The position numbers and the translations under genes are program-made. Below the pieces are notes generated by a model. That model did no database searches, was not told where the DNA came from, and saw nothing but the letters and a program-made list of their open reading frames with translations. This document shows, one piece after another, positions 27,417 through 63,319 of a stretch of 64,000 bases of DNA (positions are counted from its first letter, which is position 1; each line of letters starts with the position of its first letter). Origin of the DNA: Oscillospiraceae bacterium (GTDB lineage: Bacteria > Bacillota > Clostridia > Oscillospirales > CAG-272); NCBI GenBank assembly GCA_015063625.1, contig SVTT01000005.1, positions 44,979 through 108,978 of the forward strand. Direction: 5' to 3'.

Positions 27417-27817
27417 AAAAAAGCACTTGTGGCATAGCGTGATGTCCTTAACGGACAAATCACGCTAACTAAGTTTGCCCTTGCGGGCAAGTGAAGTTTA
27501 CTTCGTAAGTGAAGTTATCCTGCGGATAGTGAAGTTTTGCCTTCGGCAAAGTGGGCAAACTTAACTTCACTGCGAGCTTTGGTGAGCAACTTCACTGTGT
27601 ATCACACAACTTCACTTTTGCGGCAGCAAAAACTTCACTGACAGAAAAAGAGCAAACATACAAGATTTTTGTCTTGCGTGTTTGCTCTTTCTGTTTGTGA
27701 TATGGGTTTGGGCTTAGCCCATAGAGTATTTGACTAGTCAAATGCGATGCTCGCACTTAGCGGTATTTTTCAATTTCTCCGCTAAGGACATCGCCCAATA
27801 GCCGCAAGTGCTTTTTT
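27417..27817. repeat. ~39-bp imperfect inverted repeat (split terminator stem) bracketing a ~325-bp hairpin-rich segment
   Basis: The left arm is AAAAAAGCACTTGTGGCATAGCGTGATGTCCTTAACGG (27417-27454). The right arm is CCGCTAAGGACATCGCCCAATAGCCGCAAGTGCTTTTTT (27779-27817). The outer 17 bp differ at one base and match the stem of the intact terminator at 4435-4466. Confidence 0.7.
27437..27694 (+). repeat. zipper element, copy A (word GTGAAGTT / AACTTCAC)
   Basis: GTGAAGTT occurs at 27491, 27509 and 27529. AACTTCAC occurs at 27563, 27588, 27608 and 27631. Every spacer is self-complementary. The central hairpin is TTTGCC-TTCG-GGCAAA. Capping hairpins lie at 27437-27465 and 27641-27694. Confidence 0.75.
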
Positions 27818-32567: not shown

Positions 32568-32663
32568 AAAGGACCTCCTTTGGCTGTAAAGCTTATCAGC
32601 TTGATTTCCTCTTGTCTATTATTATAGCGAGAGGCGGCGAATTTGTCAATGAAAAAGCACCCC

Positions 32664-32955
32664 TTGGGCGACCTACGGTAAAGCAGGTCGCCCAACTAAG
32701 TTTGCCCATTCGGGCAAGTGAAGTTTACTGCGTAAGTGAAGTTATCCTGCGGATAGTGAAGTTTTGCCTTCGGCAAAGTGGGCAAACTTAACTTCACTTG
32801 TGCGAAGCACAAACATCACTGCAAAGCAACTTCACTTTCACGTTAGTGAAAACTTCACCTATTACCTCCCGAAAAACGCAAATGTAACACACCATACTTG
32901 CAGAGCAAGAAGTGTGAAAAGGAGTACAGGCAAAATGCCCGTACTCCTTTTTGTT
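32664..32955 (+). repeat. zipper element, copy B
   Basis: GTGAAGTT occurs at 32718, 32736 and 32756. AACTTCAC occurs at 32790, 32828 and 32851, and AACATCAC at 32812. The left ~100 nt are almost identical to copy A. The capping hairpins are TTGGGCGACCT..AGGTCGCCCAA (32664-32695) and AAAAGGAGTAC..GTACTCCTTTT (32917-32951). Confidence 0.75.
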
Positions 32956-33142
32956 GTATTGGCGGTTGCCAAAACCTGCTTTATCGCAGGTCGCCGTTGC
33001 GTGGGGCTTTTGGTGTCCTGTGTTTCCGAATCGCTTTTGAGCGCTCTGCCCTTCGGGAATATTTGATCGCAATGCACCGTGCGCGAAAAAAGACCGCCCT
33101 GCCGATATTCGGCAGGGCGGTCTGCTGTAAAATGCGCTCGGA

Positions 33143-61427: not shown

Positions 61428-61473
61428 AAACGACCCCGTTCGGGCAAAGGATCAGCCCGAACGGGGTCTTTTC
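61426..61473 (+). terminator. intrinsic terminator after potD
   Basis: GACCCCGTTCGGGC-AAAGGATCA-GCCCGAACGGGGTC followed by TTTTC. Confidence 0.7.
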
Positions 61474-61501
61474 ATAAAGCAGGTTTTACAACCGCAAAAA
61501 C

Positions 61502-61794
61502 AAAAGGAGTACGAACATTTGTTTGTACTCTTTTTCACACGCCTTGCCTGCAAGGTATAGTGTGTTACATTATACTTTTGTTTTTTGGGTGGTAAAAGGT
61601 GAAGTTTTCGCTATCGCGAAAGTGAAGTTGCTATGCAGTGAAGTTTGTGCTGCGCACAAGTGAAGTTAAGTTTGCCCACTTTGCCGAAGGCAAAACTTCA
61701 CTATCCGCAGGATAACTTCACTTACGCAGTAAACTTCACTTGCCCCTTGGGGCAAACTTAGTTGGGGCACCTGCAATATCGCAGGTGTCCCAAC
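61502..61794 (-). repeat. zipper element, copy C (inverted orientation)
   Basis: On the plus strand, GTGAAGTT occurs at 61599, 61622, 61638 and 61660, and AACTTCAC at 61694, 61714 and 61732. Its reverse complement aligns with copy B at roughly 85-90% by eye. The capping hairpins lie at 61502-61535 and 61761-61794. Confidence 0.75.
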
Positions 61795-61803
61795 GGGGTT
61801 CCT

Positions 61804-62361
61804 TCATTTCAAAAACTGCCTGGCAAAAAGAGAGGCGGTCAGAACGGTCAGCGCAAGATTTTGACCGAAGCGCAGAAGCATGCAGGAGGATAGGGCGAAC
61901 AGGAGGAGCAGCGTGAGGTAGGTGGTCACGGAAAGGATCTCTTCAGCGACCGTGATCCCAAAGAGGCGCGCCAGCAGGCAGTAAAGGATGCGTCCTCCGT
62001 CAAAGCCGGCAATGGGTGCACTGTTAAACAGTGCAAATGAGAGCGTGGCGGTGAGGACAAGACGGGCAAAGGGGAACGCATGGGGCAGTAGAAGCAGCCC
62101 GAGCAGGAGGGAAAAGGCGGGGCCTGCCGCCGCCAGCAGCAGCTCTGCACGGTAGGATGGGATCTGGGCGGCGGGATAGATCCTTGCGCCAAAGAGATCC
62201 AATTCAATGGAGCGTAGGCGGATCGAGAGCAGCCTTGCCGCCAGTAGATGACCGCACTCATGGAATAGGGCGGCAAGCGTTGCGGCAAGGAAGAGCTGCT
62301 TTTGCGTGATCGCCATGACAGCGTAAAATAAAACGGTTTCGGGAGAAATTCTGATCTTCAT
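61804..62361 (-). CDS. M50-family (site-2 protease type) membrane metalloprotease, short form
   Basis: ATG at 62361 inside track ORF 61804..62703, giving 185 aa. The HExxH motif is within ALFHECGHLLAA. The second motif, NSAPIAGFDGG, is the NxxPxxxxDG type. It has 5 TM. The rest of the track ORF is antisense to tRNA-Leu. Confidence 0.75.
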   Translation of the reverse strand: MKIRISPETVLFYAVMAITQKQLFLAATLAALFHECGHLLAARLLSIRLRSIELDLFGARIYPAAQIPSYRAELLLAAAGPAFSLLLGLLLLPHAFPFARLVLTATLSFALFNSAPIAGFDGGRILYCLLARLFGITVAEEILSVTTYLTLLLLFALSSCMLLRFGQNLALTVLTASLFARQFLK

Positions 62362-62527
62362 AGGCACCCCTTTCCTGATACGGCATATTCTATGCGGTAT
62401 CGGCATGTCCCGAAAACCGATTTTTTTGGGGAGGTGCTTTGCTGACCTGTCGCGATAAGATCTTTCGTGGGGTGAGAGCCTCGTGGCGGTGCGATAAAAA
62501 AACTTCCAAAAACTTTTCAAAAAGGGC

Positions 62528-62556
62528 TTGACAATCCACCCCTTGTTCGGTATAAT
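62528..62556 (+). promoter_or_regulatory. sigma-A type promoter for tRNA-Leu
   Basis: TTGACA (62528-62533), a 17-nt spacer, then TATAAT (62551-62556). Confidence 0.6.
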
Positions 62557-62570
62557 AATAACGTTGCCAT

Positions 62571-62655
62571 GCGAGAGTGGCGGAACTGGCAGACGCGCAC
62601 GTTTGAGGGGCGTGTGATTTCCATCGTACGGGTTCAAGTCCCGTCTCTCGCACCA
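62571..62655 (+). tRNA. tRNA-Leu (anticodon GAG), class II with long variable arm, CCA encoded
   Basis: Acceptor GCGAGAG pairs with CTCTCGC. The anticodon stem is CACGT/GCGTG with loop TT-GAG-GG. The variable arm is TGATTTCCATCGTAC and the T-arm is ACGGG-TTCAAGT-CCCGT. Length 85 nt. Confidence 0.92.
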
Positions 62656-63102
62656 ACAAAGAAAAGGGCACCCAATTGGGTGTCCTTTTCTTTGTTGGTA
62701 CAAGGGCTCGCGGATGCGAGCCCTTGCCGCCTTCGCTTGCCTTCCTTCTTATACCGTACGAAACGGCGGCAGAGAAGAACGCCGATTATTGCAGGGCAAA
62801 ATGGCGGCGTTACCGCCAAGGCGTTCTTCAGACGTGCAGGGCAAAGCCCTGCTAAGTGGTTCAACGTCCCGTCTCTCGCACCAACAAAGAAAAGGGCACC
62901 CGATCGGGTGCCCTTTTCTTTGTTGGTACAAGGGCTCGCGGATGCGAGCCCTTGCCGCCTTCGCTTGCCTTCCTTCTTATACCGTACGAAACGGCGGCAG
63001 AGAAGAACGCCGTTTTTTGCTTGCAAAATGATAGCGTTCAGCCGTCAAGGCGTTCTTCAGACGTGCAGGGCAAAGCCCTGCTAAGTGGTTCAACGTCCCG
63101 TC
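62631..63102 (+). repeat. tandem duplication (227-229-bp unit x 2 plus 16 nt) that begins inside the tRNA-Leu T-arm
   Basis: GGTTCAA(C)GTCCCGTC occurs at 62631, 62858 and 63087. The following TCTCTCGCACCAACAAAGAAAAGGGCACCC... is repeated at 62646 and 62874. The two units are near-identical except for one internal ~35-nt segment. Confidence 0.9.
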
Positions 63103-63134
63103 AAGGCCTCCCGGTCGGGTGAGGCTTCTTTTTT
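63103..63134 (+). terminator. intrinsic terminator closing the tRNA-Leu/repeat locus
   Basis: AAGGCCTC-CCGGTCGGGT-GAGGCTTC followed by TTTTTT. Confidence 0.65.
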
Positions 63135-63319
63135 GCCGATGCTCTAAACGGGATAGCCTTGAAGGCAAGTCCTTCCATGCTTCGGGCTGAAAAATGCGTT
63201 GCGTTCACAAGATGTTAATCGTTTCTTCACATCCCCTTGACAGATTCACCTGTTCGTGGTATAATGAAACAAACCGAGGGTTAGGTTTGTTAAAATTTGA
63301 ACCGGAAAGGAGAACGATT

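What the first reader, a model, noticed from the sequence alone, without database searches (positions are those of the whole stretch)
62631..63102. ~228-bp tandem duplication that starts inside tRNA-Leu(GAG): an att-like triplication of the T-arm/acceptor 3' segment
GGTTCAA(C)GTCCCGTC occurs three times (62631, 62858, 63087) and bounds two ~212-bp non-coding modules. Each module begins with the tRNA 3' end TCTCTCGCACCA. It continues into a 22-bp-stem hairpin that uses the ACCA end (ACCAACAAAGAAAAGGGCACCC / GGGTG.CCTTTTCTTTGTTGGT). Next comes CAAGGGCTCGC-GGAT-GCGAGCCCTTG, followed by nested stems. The two modules differ mainly in one internal segment (about 62784-62819 versus 63012-63048) and in a G-T to G-C change in the first hairpin. 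The downstream pseudo T-arm copies carry an extra C and have no 5' partner, so they are not tRNAs. The pattern resembles tandem site-specific integration of a tiny non-coding circle at a tRNA att site, mobilised in trans. However, the third repeat lacks the acceptor 3' strand, which does not fit the classical model. Replication slippage or a tRNA-linked processing cassette are alternatives.
Basis: partly seen in the sequence, partly recalled or inferred. Interest (0 to 1): 0.6.

Follow-up and report, generated by a model that had tools for sequence, protein, structure and literature searches.

The report
Duplicated conserved trailer element after tRNA-Leu
A 228-base stretch just after a leucine tRNA gene is present twice in a row; a single copy of the same hairpin-rich non-coding element follows this tRNA in three related gut or rumen bacteria, so this is most likely a local duplication of a conserved, probably RNA-level element and not a tiny mobile DNA circle.

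Summary
tRNA-Leu(GAG) lies at 62571-62655. It is followed by two head-to-tail units of 228/229 bp, bounded by GGTTCAA(C)GTCCCGTC at 62631, 62858 and 63087, and then by a terminator.

The units are not a recent att scar. Three other uncultured Clostridia species (M50 neighbour 60-64% identical) carry a single unit with the same layout: consensus promoter, tRNA-Leu, terminator hairpin, multi-hairpin element, degenerate T-arm copy, second terminator. One of them has the same extra C. Fifteen base pairs of the element show compensatory changes.

Near-clonal metagenome contigs of the window's species carry either two units or one. There are two different one-unit forms. Each can be derived from the two-unit form by a single homologous crossover, in the 101-nt or the 57-nt identical run, not at the cores.

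I found no integrase, no other copies and no displaced acceptor strand. The T-loop "overlap" differs by one base between the tRNA and the copies.

Best reading (about 0.5): unequal recombination between the tRNA T-arm and the element's own T-arm-like end duplicated a conserved tRNA trailer element. That element is probably an RNA made by read-through of the first terminator.

An ancient or non-autonomous integrative mini-element remains possible (about 0.25). Interest is moderate, and lies in the unannotated conserved element rather than in the duplication.

The parts
62528..62556 (+). Consensus sigma-70-type promoter of the tRNA-Leu unit (TTGACA-17-TATAAT, 12/12)
   Evidence: The same 12/12 promoter precedes the orthologous tRNA in L031, L032 and L173.
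62571..62655 (+). tRNA-Leu(GAG), CCA encoded
   Evidence: ARAGORN; Rfam RF00005 at 48 bits.
62631..62645 (+). Repeat copy 1: GGTTCAAGTCCCGTC. This is the genuine T-arm of the tRNA, from the last two G of the 5' T-stem strand to the base after the 3' strand.
62646..62857 (+). Unit 1 body (212 nt): acceptor 3' strand plus CCA; hp1, a bidirectional terminator-like 22-bp hairpin (62652-62699); hp2 (62701-62726); hp3 (62724-62731 / 62765-62772); hp4 stem (62774-62783 / 62820-62829) enclosing the variable apical hairpins A and B (62784-62819); hp5 (62836-62852); linker TAAGT.
   Evidence: Folds; consensus structure and pair counts; covariance model R1 hit at 62724-62873, 165.9 bits.
62858..62873 (+). 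Repeat copy 2: GGTTCAACGTCCCGTC (pseudo-T-arm with an extra C). It is the junction between unit 1 and unit 2.
62874..63086 (+). Unit 2 body (213 nt): same layout. Here hp1 is a perfect palindrome (loop GATC, G-C instead of G.T) and the apical segment 63012-63048 is the second variant.
   Evidence: R1 hit at 62952-63102, 165.8 bits.
63087..63102 (+). Repeat copy 3: GGTTCAACGTCCCGTC. This is the natural 3' end of the element and is not followed by an acceptor strand.
   Evidence: The equivalent motif ends the single unit in L031 (GGTTCAACGTCCCATC), L032 (GGGGCAAGTCCCAT) and L173 (AGGTTCA[20-nt hairpin]AATCCTT).
63103..63135 (+). Second intrinsic-terminator-like hairpin (AAGGCCTCCCGGTCGGGTGAGGCTTCTTTTTTG), which closes the locus on the tRNA strand.
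   Evidence: Sequence; fold. A terminator occupies the same position in L031, L032 and L173.

Best explanation
The repeat is a genuine tandem duplication (2.07 units) of a lineage-conserved, hairpin-rich non-coding trailer element of the tRNA-Leu gene.

The ancestral, single-unit locus reads: consensus promoter, tRNA-Leu, terminator hairpin hp1, a structured element of about 150 nt (hp3, hp4 with two apical hairpins, hp5), a degenerate copy of the tRNA's T-arm, and a second terminator. The element therefore sits between two direct repeats of 15/16 nt, the real T-arm and the pseudo-T-arm.

Unequal recombination or template switching between these two repeats produced the two-unit form. The middle repeat carries the extra C of the pseudo-T-arm, followed by the tRNA-type acceptor strand.

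The two copies then diverged by a few hairpin-local complex changes. Homologous recombination between the copies gives back one-unit forms.

Shown: the duplication and its boundaries; conservation of the single unit in other species; compensatory base changes; two different one-unit forms, each derivable from the two-unit form by one crossover.

Inferred: the recombination mechanism. Also inferred is that the element works as an RNA, transcribed by read-through of hp1 from the very strong tRNA promoter and ended by the second terminator. Its T-arm-like 3' hairpin may make it a substrate or decoy for tRNA-handling enzymes; this last point is speculative.
For: 1. Homologous single units follow the orthologous tRNA-Leu in L031 (GAG) and in L032/L033 and L173 (AAG). 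blastn gives E=3e-23 over 146 nt to L031; sequences are; tRNAs; alignment. L031 has the same GGTTCAAC-GTCCC motif with the extra C, so the motif predates the duplication.
2. Only the part from hp3 onward is alignable by BLAST. hp1/hp2 keep their position but not their sequence. This indicates long vertical divergence with constraint on the element.
3. The consensus structure has 45 pairs, 15 of them with changes on both sides. 91% of cells are paired, against 37-50% when the 3' partners are slid. Double changes number 15, against 0-4 in the slid controls, and 0 of 500 shuffles reach the observed values.
4. The element shows no coding signal: no conserved ORF and no Pfam hit.
5. All four species have a 12/12 consensus promoter before the tRNA, no internal promoter, and a terminator right after the element on the tRNA strand.
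6. The species has three forms on nearly identical flanks (0-1 SNP per kb, apart from L004, whose left flank is 98.8% identical). Two units: window, L001, L004, L010. One unit identical to unit 1: L155 and L156, on a distinct SNP background. One unit with the hp1 of unit 1 and the apical segment of unit 2: L002, L003, L006, and partially L008 and L009.
7. The perfectly identical runs between the units are 36, 101 and 57 nt. The two one-unit forms correspond to crossovers in the 101-nt and 57-nt runs.
8. Each apical variant keeps one ancestral-looking hairpin and has one derived hairpin (hairpin A in unit 1, hairpin B in unit 2, judged against L031 and L173). The hp1 differences are symmetric (AATT to GATC) or perfect the palindrome. 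Changes of this kind arise by hairpin-templated mutation.
Against: - There are no expression data.
- hp1 looks like a strong terminator between the promoter and the element, so the RNA reading needs read-through.
- Only 4 species (5 sequences) support the structure, and the structure was predicted from those same sequences.
- The G.U versus A.C count (10 versus 4) is biased towards the strand that was folded.
- The pseudo-T-arm tracks the T-arm of each species' own tRNA (AATCCTT in L173, GTCCCAT in L032, GTCCCGTC here). A pure RNA-gene model does not explain this without concerted evolution through repeated duplication and deletion.
- Distribution is patchy: L171 has the tRNA without the element, and L190 has neither.
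- A 15/16-nt repeat is short for RecA-dependent recombination.
- The one-unit contigs with the hybrid unit could in part be assembly collapse of the two-unit form.
Confidence: 0.5

Rival explanations
1. The unit is, or descends from, a non-autonomous integrative mini-element (CIME-like). It would be bounded by att cores in the tRNA T-loop, would carry the replacement tRNA 3' end plus terminator as tRNA-targeting elements do, and would be moved or accreted in tandem by an integrase supplied in trans. The two-unit form would then be an accretion of two alleles.
For: - The repeat edge lies in the T-loop, within 3 nt of where the identity block of phages integrating in this same tRNA begins (L024/L027/L028, with a Phage_integrase ORF).
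- The unit starts with the acceptor strand, CCA and a terminator.
- The pseudo-T-arm matches each host's own T-arm.
- Irregularities sit exactly in the T-loop: +C here and in L031, and a 20-nt hairpin in L173.
- Distribution among relatives is patchy.
- L031 has a second, truncated relic with its own T-like motif.
- The tRNA is a variable site in this near-clonal species (L005, L007).
- The two units differ in a clustered way.
- Tandem accretion and CIMEs are documented for other att sites (PMC5704250; PMC3146451).
Against: - No species has the displaced acceptor strand after the last repeat. The reconstructed attB would therefore be a dead tRNA.
- The would-be overlap differs by an indel between the tRNA and the copies (TTCAAGT versus TTCAACGT).
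- No integrase lies within about 10 kb to the left (in the window) or 6 kb to the right (on same-species contigs), and tblastn of the window with the L027 integrase finds nothing.
- No copy was found in phage or plasmid records, viral contigs, 185,579 species genomes (exact 28-mer) or elsewhere in the window.
- The locus is syntenic (tRNA-synthetase gene, then tRNA-Leu, then the element) in two clades, and hp1 has diverged beyond alignment while the element has not. That pattern fits vertical descent, not recent transfer.
- The hybrid one-unit form has its crossover in the unit body.
- A 212-228 bp circle is very small for Int-type excision (general knowledge).
Confidence: 0.25
2. The whole region is selectively neutral debris of repeated rearrangements at a highly transcribed, hairpin-rich tRNA locus. 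These would be slippage, template switching and old integration scars. The apparent compensatory changes would be produced mechanically by hairpin-templated mutation, not by selection.
For: - All differences between the two units lie in hairpin loops or apical stems, and they keep or perfect the palindromes.
- L173 has an independent tandem array at the 5' edge of the same tRNA.
- L031 has an extra truncated relic.
- No Rfam family matches.
- There is no internal promoter.
Against: - Neutral intergenic DNA should not stay alignable (E=3e-23) between species whose neighbouring M50 protein is 63% identical, while the adjacent hp1 region is no longer alignable.
- Unpaired blocks such as GCGGCGGCAGAGAAGA and CAAGG are conserved.
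- A second terminator is retained after the element in all four species.
Confidence: 0.12
3. The 3' part of each unit is a decayed second tRNA-Leu gene, and the duplication arose by recombination between the T-arms of two neighbouring tRNA genes. In other Clostridia, tRNA-Leu(GAG) is followed by tRNA-Leu(CAG).
For: - L029 and L159 have tRNA-Leu(GAG) followed by tRNA-Leu(CAG).
- The T-arm of that second tRNA lies 160-215 nt after the first tRNA. The pseudo-T-arm lies about 200 nt after it here.
- hp5 sits where a class II variable arm would be.
Against: - The tRNA covariance model finds nothing in the unit, even at E<=10 in a 181-nt search or at E<=0.5 in the relatives.
- The 75 nt before the pseudo-T-arm align to tRNA-Leu 5' parts no better than shuffled sequence does.
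- The stretch that would form the anticodon arm is instead paired in the covarying hp4 stem.
Confidence: 0.05

Closest known systems
att repeats, tandem accretion and cis-mobilizable elements (CIMEs) at tRNA/tmRNA genes (ICESt1-type elements; Dehalococcoides ssrA islands)
   Same: Direct repeats of the 3' part of a tRNA-type gene bound successive units downstream of the gene. The junction lies in the T-loop. [quoted passage not shown] Elements without an integrase that keep attL/attR are defined as CIMEs, and tandem arrays arise by accretion (PMC5704250).
   Different: The units here are 212 nt and gene-free. The last repeat lacks the rest of the tRNA 3' end. No integrase and no other copies were found. 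The single unit is conserved with compensatory changes across species at a syntenic locus. The observed copy-number change maps to homologous crossovers inside the unit.
Tandem duplication and deletion by unequal recombination or slippage between short direct repeats (general bacterial genetics; own knowledge)
   Same: The copies are head-to-tail. A short repeat pre-exists at both ends of the single unit in relatives. The middle junction is a hybrid of the two end repeats. One-unit derivatives have crossovers in the longest identical runs.
   Different: One of the two end repeats is the functional T-arm of an expressed tRNA. The duplicated segment is itself a conserved structured element, not arbitrary sequence.
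Functional tRNA trailers such as the 3' external transcribed spacer of leuZ in E. coli (sRNA sponge; concept as cited in papers listed; details from own knowledge)
   Same: Non-coding sequence directly 3' of a tRNA-Leu gene, transcribed from the tRNA promoter and including the terminator hairpin, has a function of its own as RNA.
   Different: There is no sequence relationship. Here the conserved part lies beyond a first terminator, is much larger (about 150 nt, five hairpins) and ends in a T-arm mimic. Expression has not been tested.
Partial-tRNA repeat ladders left by tRNA-targeting elements (tycheposons of Prochlorococcus; bioRxiv 10.1101/2020.12.28.424599, listed)
   Same: There are repeated partial tRNA segments downstream of an intact tRNA in a variable region.
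   Different: Those repeats bound kilobase-scale, gene-carrying islands that encode integrases. They are not a 212-nt conserved hairpin array.

Membership tests
Site-specific integrative element at a tRNA gene (attL/attR; CIME if gene-free) | Direct repeats identical to a segment of the tRNA flank the element | tested here: met
   The 15/16-nt repeat GGTTCAA(C)GTCCCGTC occurs at 62631, 62858 and 63087.
Site-specific integrative element at a tRNA gene (attL/attR; CIME if gene-free) | The distal repeat (attR) carries the displaced native tRNA 3' end (rest of T-arm, acceptor strand), so that attB reconstructs a functional tRNA | tested here: not met
   After 63102 the sequence is AAGGCCTCCC..., which is not complementary to GCGAGAG. 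No acceptor strand follows the terminal motif in L031, L032 or L173 either.
Site-specific integrative element at a tRNA gene (attL/attR; CIME if gene-free) | Identical overlap (strand-exchange) sequence in the recombining sites | tested here: not met
   The T-loop is TTCAAGT in the tRNA and TTCAACGT in copies 2 and 3. Copies 2 and 3 are identical to each other.
Site-specific integrative element at a tRNA gene (attL/attR; CIME if gene-free) | A cognate integrase in the element or elsewhere in the genome | tested here: inconclusive
   None within about 10 kb to the left (in the window) or 6 kb to the right (on same-species contigs). tblastn of one tRNA-Leu-specific integrase against the window is negative. 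The rest of the genome is not available. L005 and L007 hint at other elements at this tRNA.
Site-specific integrative element at a tRNA gene (attL/attR; CIME if gene-free) | Presence/absence polymorphism with a precise empty site, or copies at other sites or in other genomes | tested here: not met
   No zero-unit contig of the species was seen. No copy was found in phages, plasmids, viral contigs, GTDB species genomes (exact 28-mer) or the window. The metagenome scan was uninformative.
Tandem duplication by recombination between short flanking direct repeats | Head-to-tail copies whose junction is a hybrid of repeats that already flank the single-copy state | tested here: met
   The single-copy state with a terminal T-arm-like repeat occurs in L031, L032 and L173 and in L155/L156. 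Junction copy 2 consists of the pseudo-T-arm left part (with the C) followed by the tRNA-type acceptor strand.
Tandem duplication by recombination between short flanking direct repeats | Copy-number variants explained by homologous crossovers within the units | tested here: met
   The hybrid unit (hp1 of unit 1 plus the apical segment of unit 2) requires a crossover in the 101-nt identical run. The unit-1-only form requires a crossover in the 57-nt run. Caveat: the hybrid could be assembly collapse.
Structured non-coding RNA gene or motif | Secondary structure conserved with compensatory substitutions across species | tested here: met
   15 of 45 pairs have both-sided changes. 91% of cells are paired, against 37-50% in the slid controls, and 0 of 500 shuffles reach the observed values. 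Only 4 species are available.
Structured non-coding RNA gene or motif | Evidence of transcription (promoter, terminator, RNA reads) | tested here: inconclusive
   A terminator follows the element in all four species. The only promoter is the tRNA promoter, upstream of a terminator-like hp1. RNA data cannot be obtained with these tools.
Any Rfam family (release 15) | Match at or above the family gathering score | tested here: not met
   In the units and their homologues only hairpin-type sub-threshold hits appear (microRNA precursor models and similar).
tRNA gene or pseudogene (second tRNA-Leu) | Cloverleaf detectable by tRNA models, or sequence similarity to tRNA 5' parts | tested here: not met
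   ARAGORN finds one tRNA only. There is no RF00005 hit at E<=10. Alignment to tRNA 5' parts is no better than with shuffled sequence.

The most novel reading that the evidence does not exclude
The unit is an undescribed class of tRNA-linked structured RNA. It would be transcribed by read-through from the tRNA-Leu promoter, and its conserved three-way-junction body and terminal T-arm mimic would let it engage tRNA-processing or tRNA-binding factors. Alternatively, and equally unexcluded, it is the smallest kind of att-flanked hitch-hiker, a gene-free element of about 200 bp that has become part of the tRNA gene it occupies. In either case its T-arm-like end makes the locus prone to copy-number change.
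Probability: 0.3. Interest if true: 0.6.

Novelty: new member of a known kind. Interest (0 to 1): 0.4.

Why it matters
The duplication itself is ordinary genome plasticity. It shows how a functional tRNA T-arm and a look-alike 200 nt downstream can drive copy-number change without any recombinase. That is a useful caution against reading every partial-tRNA repeat as an att scar.

The more valuable by-product is an unannotated non-coding element of about 150 nt with compensatory base-pair changes. It is fixed behind tRNA-Leu in several uncultured rumen or gut Clostridia and matches no Rfam family. If it is expressed, it would add a structured tRNA-trailer RNA with a T-arm mimic to the short list of functional tRNA spacers.

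Tried and rejected
1. Metagenome scan with the hp2 pattern AAGGGCTCGCNNNNGCGAGCCCTT. None contained the rest of the unit. The only metagenome scan was therefore wasted.
2. Genome-collection scans. The 28-mer at the unit end gave 0 hits. The architecture pattern (tRNA 3' end, then 188-218 nt, then the T-loop) gave one hit, RUG714, which is simply two adjacent tRNA-Leu genes.
3. Viral-contig scans. hp2 gave 0 hits. The 16-mer pseudo-core gave 13 chance hits inside genes. The L007 and L005 variant sequences gave 0 hits. The conserved-block pattern gave 14 chance hits in coding sequence.
4. Phage and plasmid BLAST of the units found no match.
5. Decayed second tRNA: rejected.
6. Homology between the final terminator and hp1, which would have made copy 3 a truncated third unit: not significant (228 of 2000 shuffles score as high).
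7. Coding potential. ORFs run through the units because 228 is a multiple of 3, but they have no Pfam match and there is no ORF conserved between species.
8. Diversity-generating retroelement as the source of the variable segment. The differences are not adenine-specific, and no reverse transcriptase gene was seen among the neighbouring genes examined (sequence inspection).
9. An antisense promoter at the pseudo-T-arm. There is a weak 9/12 match in L032 only, and it is not conserved.
10. An empty site in close relatives. The M50 and KsgA neighbourhoods are rearranged in relatives, so no precise empty site could be defined.
11. The right-hand (attR-side) junction in the L005 and L007 strains could not be reached.
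Full report
**1. Observation**

The window carries one tRNA-Leu(GAG) at 62571-62655 (ARAGORN; Rfam 48 bits). It lies behind a perfect TTGACA-17-TATAAT promoter at 62528-62556.

From the T-arm onward the sequence is repeated head to tail. The repeat finder gives 62638-62792 / 62866-63020 (155 nt, 97%, spacing 228) and 62813-62873 / 63042-63102 (61 nt, 98%, spacing 229) (alignment). GGTTCAACGTCCCGTC occurs at 62858 and 63087 and nowhere else in 64 kb; 0.03 matches are expected by chance. The tRNA's own T-arm at 62631 is the same sequence without the C.

Each unit contains, in order:
- the acceptor 3' strand and CCA;
- a 22-bp hairpin that includes ACCA and has A- and T-tracts (a bidirectional terminator shape);
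- CAAGGGCTCGC-GGAT-GCGAGCCCTTG;
- three further hairpins.

The region as a whole folds far better than shuffled sequence (z = -13.6 for the whole, -9.0 and -8.0 per unit).

The units differ only at 62674, 62677 and 62683 (hp1 loop AATT/GATC and one G.T to G-C), in 62784-62819 versus 63012-63048, and at one further base, 62816 (C) versus 63045 (T). After the third repeat comes a terminator-like hairpin (63103-63135), and then the promoter and start of a DUF6612 lipoprotein gene. The same two-unit arrangement is seen in three independent metagenome contigs (L001, L004, L010).

**2. Surroundings**

- To the left lies an M50-family peptidase gene (61804-62361, minus strand), followed by an ABC sugar transporter, a LacI-type regulator, a GH2 glycosidase and an MFS transporter.
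- To the right lie DUF6612 and then ksgA.
- No integrase lies within about 10 kb on the left (in the window) or about 6 kb on the right (on same-species contigs). tblastn of the window with a tRNA-Leu-specific phage integrase is negative.
- The ORFs that run through the units exist because 228 is divisible by 3. They have no Pfam family.
- Source names attached to homologous proteins indicate an uncultured Clostridia bacterium, near "Ruminococcaceae/Oscillospiraceae" MAGs from animal guts.

**3. Is this tRNA an integration site?**

Yes, in general. Viral contigs hold a textbook set for the same tRNA-Leu(GAG):
- L024 is the tRNA followed by a phage arm.
- L028 is phage arm, ACGGGTTCAAGTCCCGTCTCTCGCACCA, and the same right arm as L024.
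- L027 is the same left arm as L028, followed by a bacterial terminator, with a Phage_integrase ORF 866 nt away.

The identity block starts 3 nt to the left of where the window's pseudo-T-arm starts.

Within the window's own species, two contigs show other states. Their M50 protein is 100% identical and their left flanks have no differences over 2.7-3.1 kb.
- L007 diverges right after ACCAACAAA into a different set of hairpins.
- L005 diverges from the variable arm onward. L005 could be an inter-species assembly chimera through the conserved tRNA 5' half. L007 keeps the lineage-specific variable arm, so it is more convincing.

**4. The turning point: the unit is old and conserved**

These were L031 (E = 3e-23, 76% over 146 nt) and L032/L033 (71%); L173 was recognised afterwards.

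In each of these species, on the tRNA strand, the order is:
- a 12/12 consensus promoter;
- tRNA-Leu (GAG in L031, AAG in L032 and L173);
- a long A/T-tract terminator hairpin of unrelated sequence;
- a homologous element, CTGCCGCC ... GCGGCGGCAGAGAAGA ... [two small apical hairpins] ... TTCTTCA ... hairpin ... AAAGY;
- a degenerate T-arm: GGTTCAACGTCCCATC in L031 (the same extra C), GGGGCAAGTCCCAT in L032, and AGGTTCA-[20-nt hairpin]-AATCCTT in L173;
- a second terminator.

The one-unit locus with its terminal pseudo-T-arm is therefore ancestral to species whose M50 proteins are only 60-64% identical. The hp1/hp2 part is no longer alignable by BLAST, while the element from hp3 onward still is. 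This pattern means constraint on the element, not recent transfer.

Other relatives lack the element:
- L171 has the tRNA followed by a plain terminator.
- L190 has no tRNA at the syntenic place.

**5. Structure**

RNAalifold on the five distinct sequences (two window units, L031, L032, L173) gives 45 pairs, 15 of them with changes on both sides.

Counting on that structure gives the following:
- 91% of cells are paired, against 37-50% when the 3' partners are slid by 1-3 columns.
- 15 pairs have double changes, against 0-4 in the slid controls.
- 0 of 500 shuffles reach the observed values.
- The hp4 stem has four covarying positions in 10 bp. hp5 is replaced wholesale in L032 and L173 but stays a hairpin.

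Caveats: only four species are available, and the structure was derived from the same sequences.

G.U pairs outnumber A.C on the tRNA strand by 10 to 4, but this count is biased by the strand that was folded.

Further checks:
- No Rfam family reaches its threshold in any of the four species.
- No ORF is conserved.
- A covariance model built from the alignment (R1) finds only these copies in 285 kb of held sequence.

**6. Copy-number variation in the species**

On almost identical flanks there are three forms:
- (a) Two units, m1+m2: the window, L001, L004, and L010 (at least two units).
- (b) One unit identical to m1: L155 and L156. These also differ by a DUF6612 V175 variant and one flank SNP, so they come from a distinct strain.
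- (c) One hybrid unit with the hp1 of m1 and the apical segment of m2: L002, L003, L006, and partially L008 and L009.

The perfectly identical runs between m1 and m2 are 36 nt (head), 101 nt (body) and 57 nt (tail). Form (c) needs a crossover in the body and form (b) a crossover in the tail. Both are single homologous deletions from form (a), and the more frequent form uses the longer run.

Form (c) is also what an assembler would produce by collapsing form (a), so I treat it as probable but not proven. Form (b) cannot be produced that way at k = 141, and it sits on its own SNP background.

A crossover at the cores, as site-specific recombination predicts, is not required by any of the forms. 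The hybrid form contradicts it.

**7. How the two units came to differ**

The clustered differences first looked like two old alleles. Comparison with the relatives shows otherwise:
- m1 keeps the ancestral apical hairpin A (TTGC-AGG-GCAA, as in L173 and L031) but has a derived hairpin B.
- m2 keeps the ancestral hairpin B (GTTCAG loop, as in L031 and L173) but has a derived hairpin A.
- The hp1 differences are symmetric (AATT to GATC) or perfect the palindrome.

A few hairpin-templated complex mutations in each copy after an in-situ duplication are enough to account for this. That mechanism comes from established knowledge and is an inference here.

**8. Explanation adopted (about 0.5)**

The element is natively flanked by the real T-arm and its own T-arm-like end. 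Unequal recombination or template switching between these 15/16-nt repeats duplicated [acceptor strand, hp1 ... hp5, pseudo-T-arm]. This gives exactly the observed 2.07 units, with a middle repeat that has the extra C followed by the acceptor strand. Homologous recombination then removes a unit again.

I take the element itself to be an RNA, for these reasons:
- it is constrained in structure;
- it always lies on the tRNA strand;
- it has no promoter of its own;
- it sits behind a very strong tRNA promoter and is followed by its own terminator in all four species.

This requires read-through of hp1 and is untested. What the RNA does is unknown. The T-arm mimic next to hp5 suggests interaction with tRNA-handling enzymes, but that is speculation.

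**9. Rivals**

- (i) A non-autonomous or ancient integrative mini-element (0.25). For it: the T-loop boundary; the element-borne tRNA 3' end; the pseudo-T-arm tracking each host's own T-arm (most strikingly AATCCTT in L173); irregularities exactly in the T-loop; patchy distribution; an extra truncated relic in L031. Against it: no displaced acceptor strand in any species; a non-identical overlap; no integrase; no other copies; synteny; the body crossover. Concerted evolution through repeated duplication and deletion cycles can also explain why the pseudo-T-arm tracks the T-arm.
- (ii) Neutral debris with mechanically produced "compensation" (0.12). This is contradicted by alignability at this divergence and by conserved unpaired blocks.
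- (iii) A decayed second tRNA-Leu (0.05). This was tested and not supported.

**10. Comparison with known systems**

The architecture resembles att ladders and CIME accretion at tRNA/tmRNA genes (PMC5704250; PMC3146451). The resemblance includes a base that distinguishes the gene from all its repeats. It fails the defining tests, however: the distal repeat does not restore the tRNA, the overlap is not identical, and there is no integrase and no evidence of mobility.

It meets the tests for a short-repeat-mediated tandem duplication. It provisionally meets the tests for a conserved structured RNA motif that is not in Rfam. Functional tRNA trailers (the leuZ 3' external transcribed spacer) are the nearest functional analogy, with no sequence relationship.

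**11. Verdict**

- The "tiny circle integrated in tandem" reading is not supported, though a remote integrative origin is not excluded.
- The duplication is ordinary.
- The conserved tRNA-Leu trailer element is a modestly interesting, apparently undescribed motif.
- Interest is 0.4.

Noticed in passing
window 61473-61799, 32648-32991, 27467-27571; L160/L162 between ksgA and DUF6612: A dispersed repeat family of about 330-345 bp carries the Gut-1 RNA motif (RF01706; 50.4 bits at 61690-61764, minus strand). It has at least three copies in the window and one beyond its right end (86-98% identity). Metagenome contigs of the species break inside these repeats.
   Followed up: partly
L173 2690-2940 (minus strand), between the promoter and tRNA-Leu(AAG): A tandem array of at least 4 units of about 46 nt, interrupted by an N gap. 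Each unit starts with the tRNA's own first 9 nt (GCGGGCGTG) and contains CCGCCACACCC, which is nearly complementary to the tRNA 5' part. This is a 5'-side counterpart of the 3'-side repeat in the window.
   Followed up: no
L031 40-110 (minus strand): Two T-arm-like motifs lie in a row after the element: GGTTCAACGTCCCATC, then a hairpin, AAAGC and GGGGCAAGTCCCATCA (the L032 type). They look like the relic of a second, truncated unit in another species.
   Followed up: partly
L007 1-137 and L005 1-54 (same species as the window; reverse strand): Both contigs have a left flank with no differences from the window. L007 switches after ACCAACAAA to a different terminator hairpin plus a 30-bp-stem palindrome. 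L005 has a different tRNA 3' half from the variable arm onward (T-loop CTCAAGT). They are either other elements at this tRNA or, for L005, an assembly chimera. Both contigs end too soon to tell.
   Followed up: partly
L160 7200-12864 (JGI 3300032167): After ksgA and the Gut-1-type repeat, this contig diverges from L162 exactly at the DUF6612 stop codon. It continues into an HTH/Peptidase_S24 repressor-like gene, a pseudouridine synthase gene and a radical-SAM gene. This is either a strain rearrangement or a chimeric join through the repeat.
   Followed up: no
L032 60-110 and L173 2290-2330 (minus strand): A conserved hairpin, TTGCCTTAATAGATGCAGGCAA, lies between the pseudo-T-arm and the final terminator in two species. 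It is absent from the window.
   Followed up: no
L031-L034, L170-L175 versus window 61804-62571: In relatives, a Lactamase_B gene and a class I tRNA-synthetase (tRNA-synt_1c) gene lie between M50 and tRNA-Leu. In the window's species they are missing, so the tRNA promoter directly abuts the M50 gene start. There is a synteny break at this locus.
   Followed up: partly
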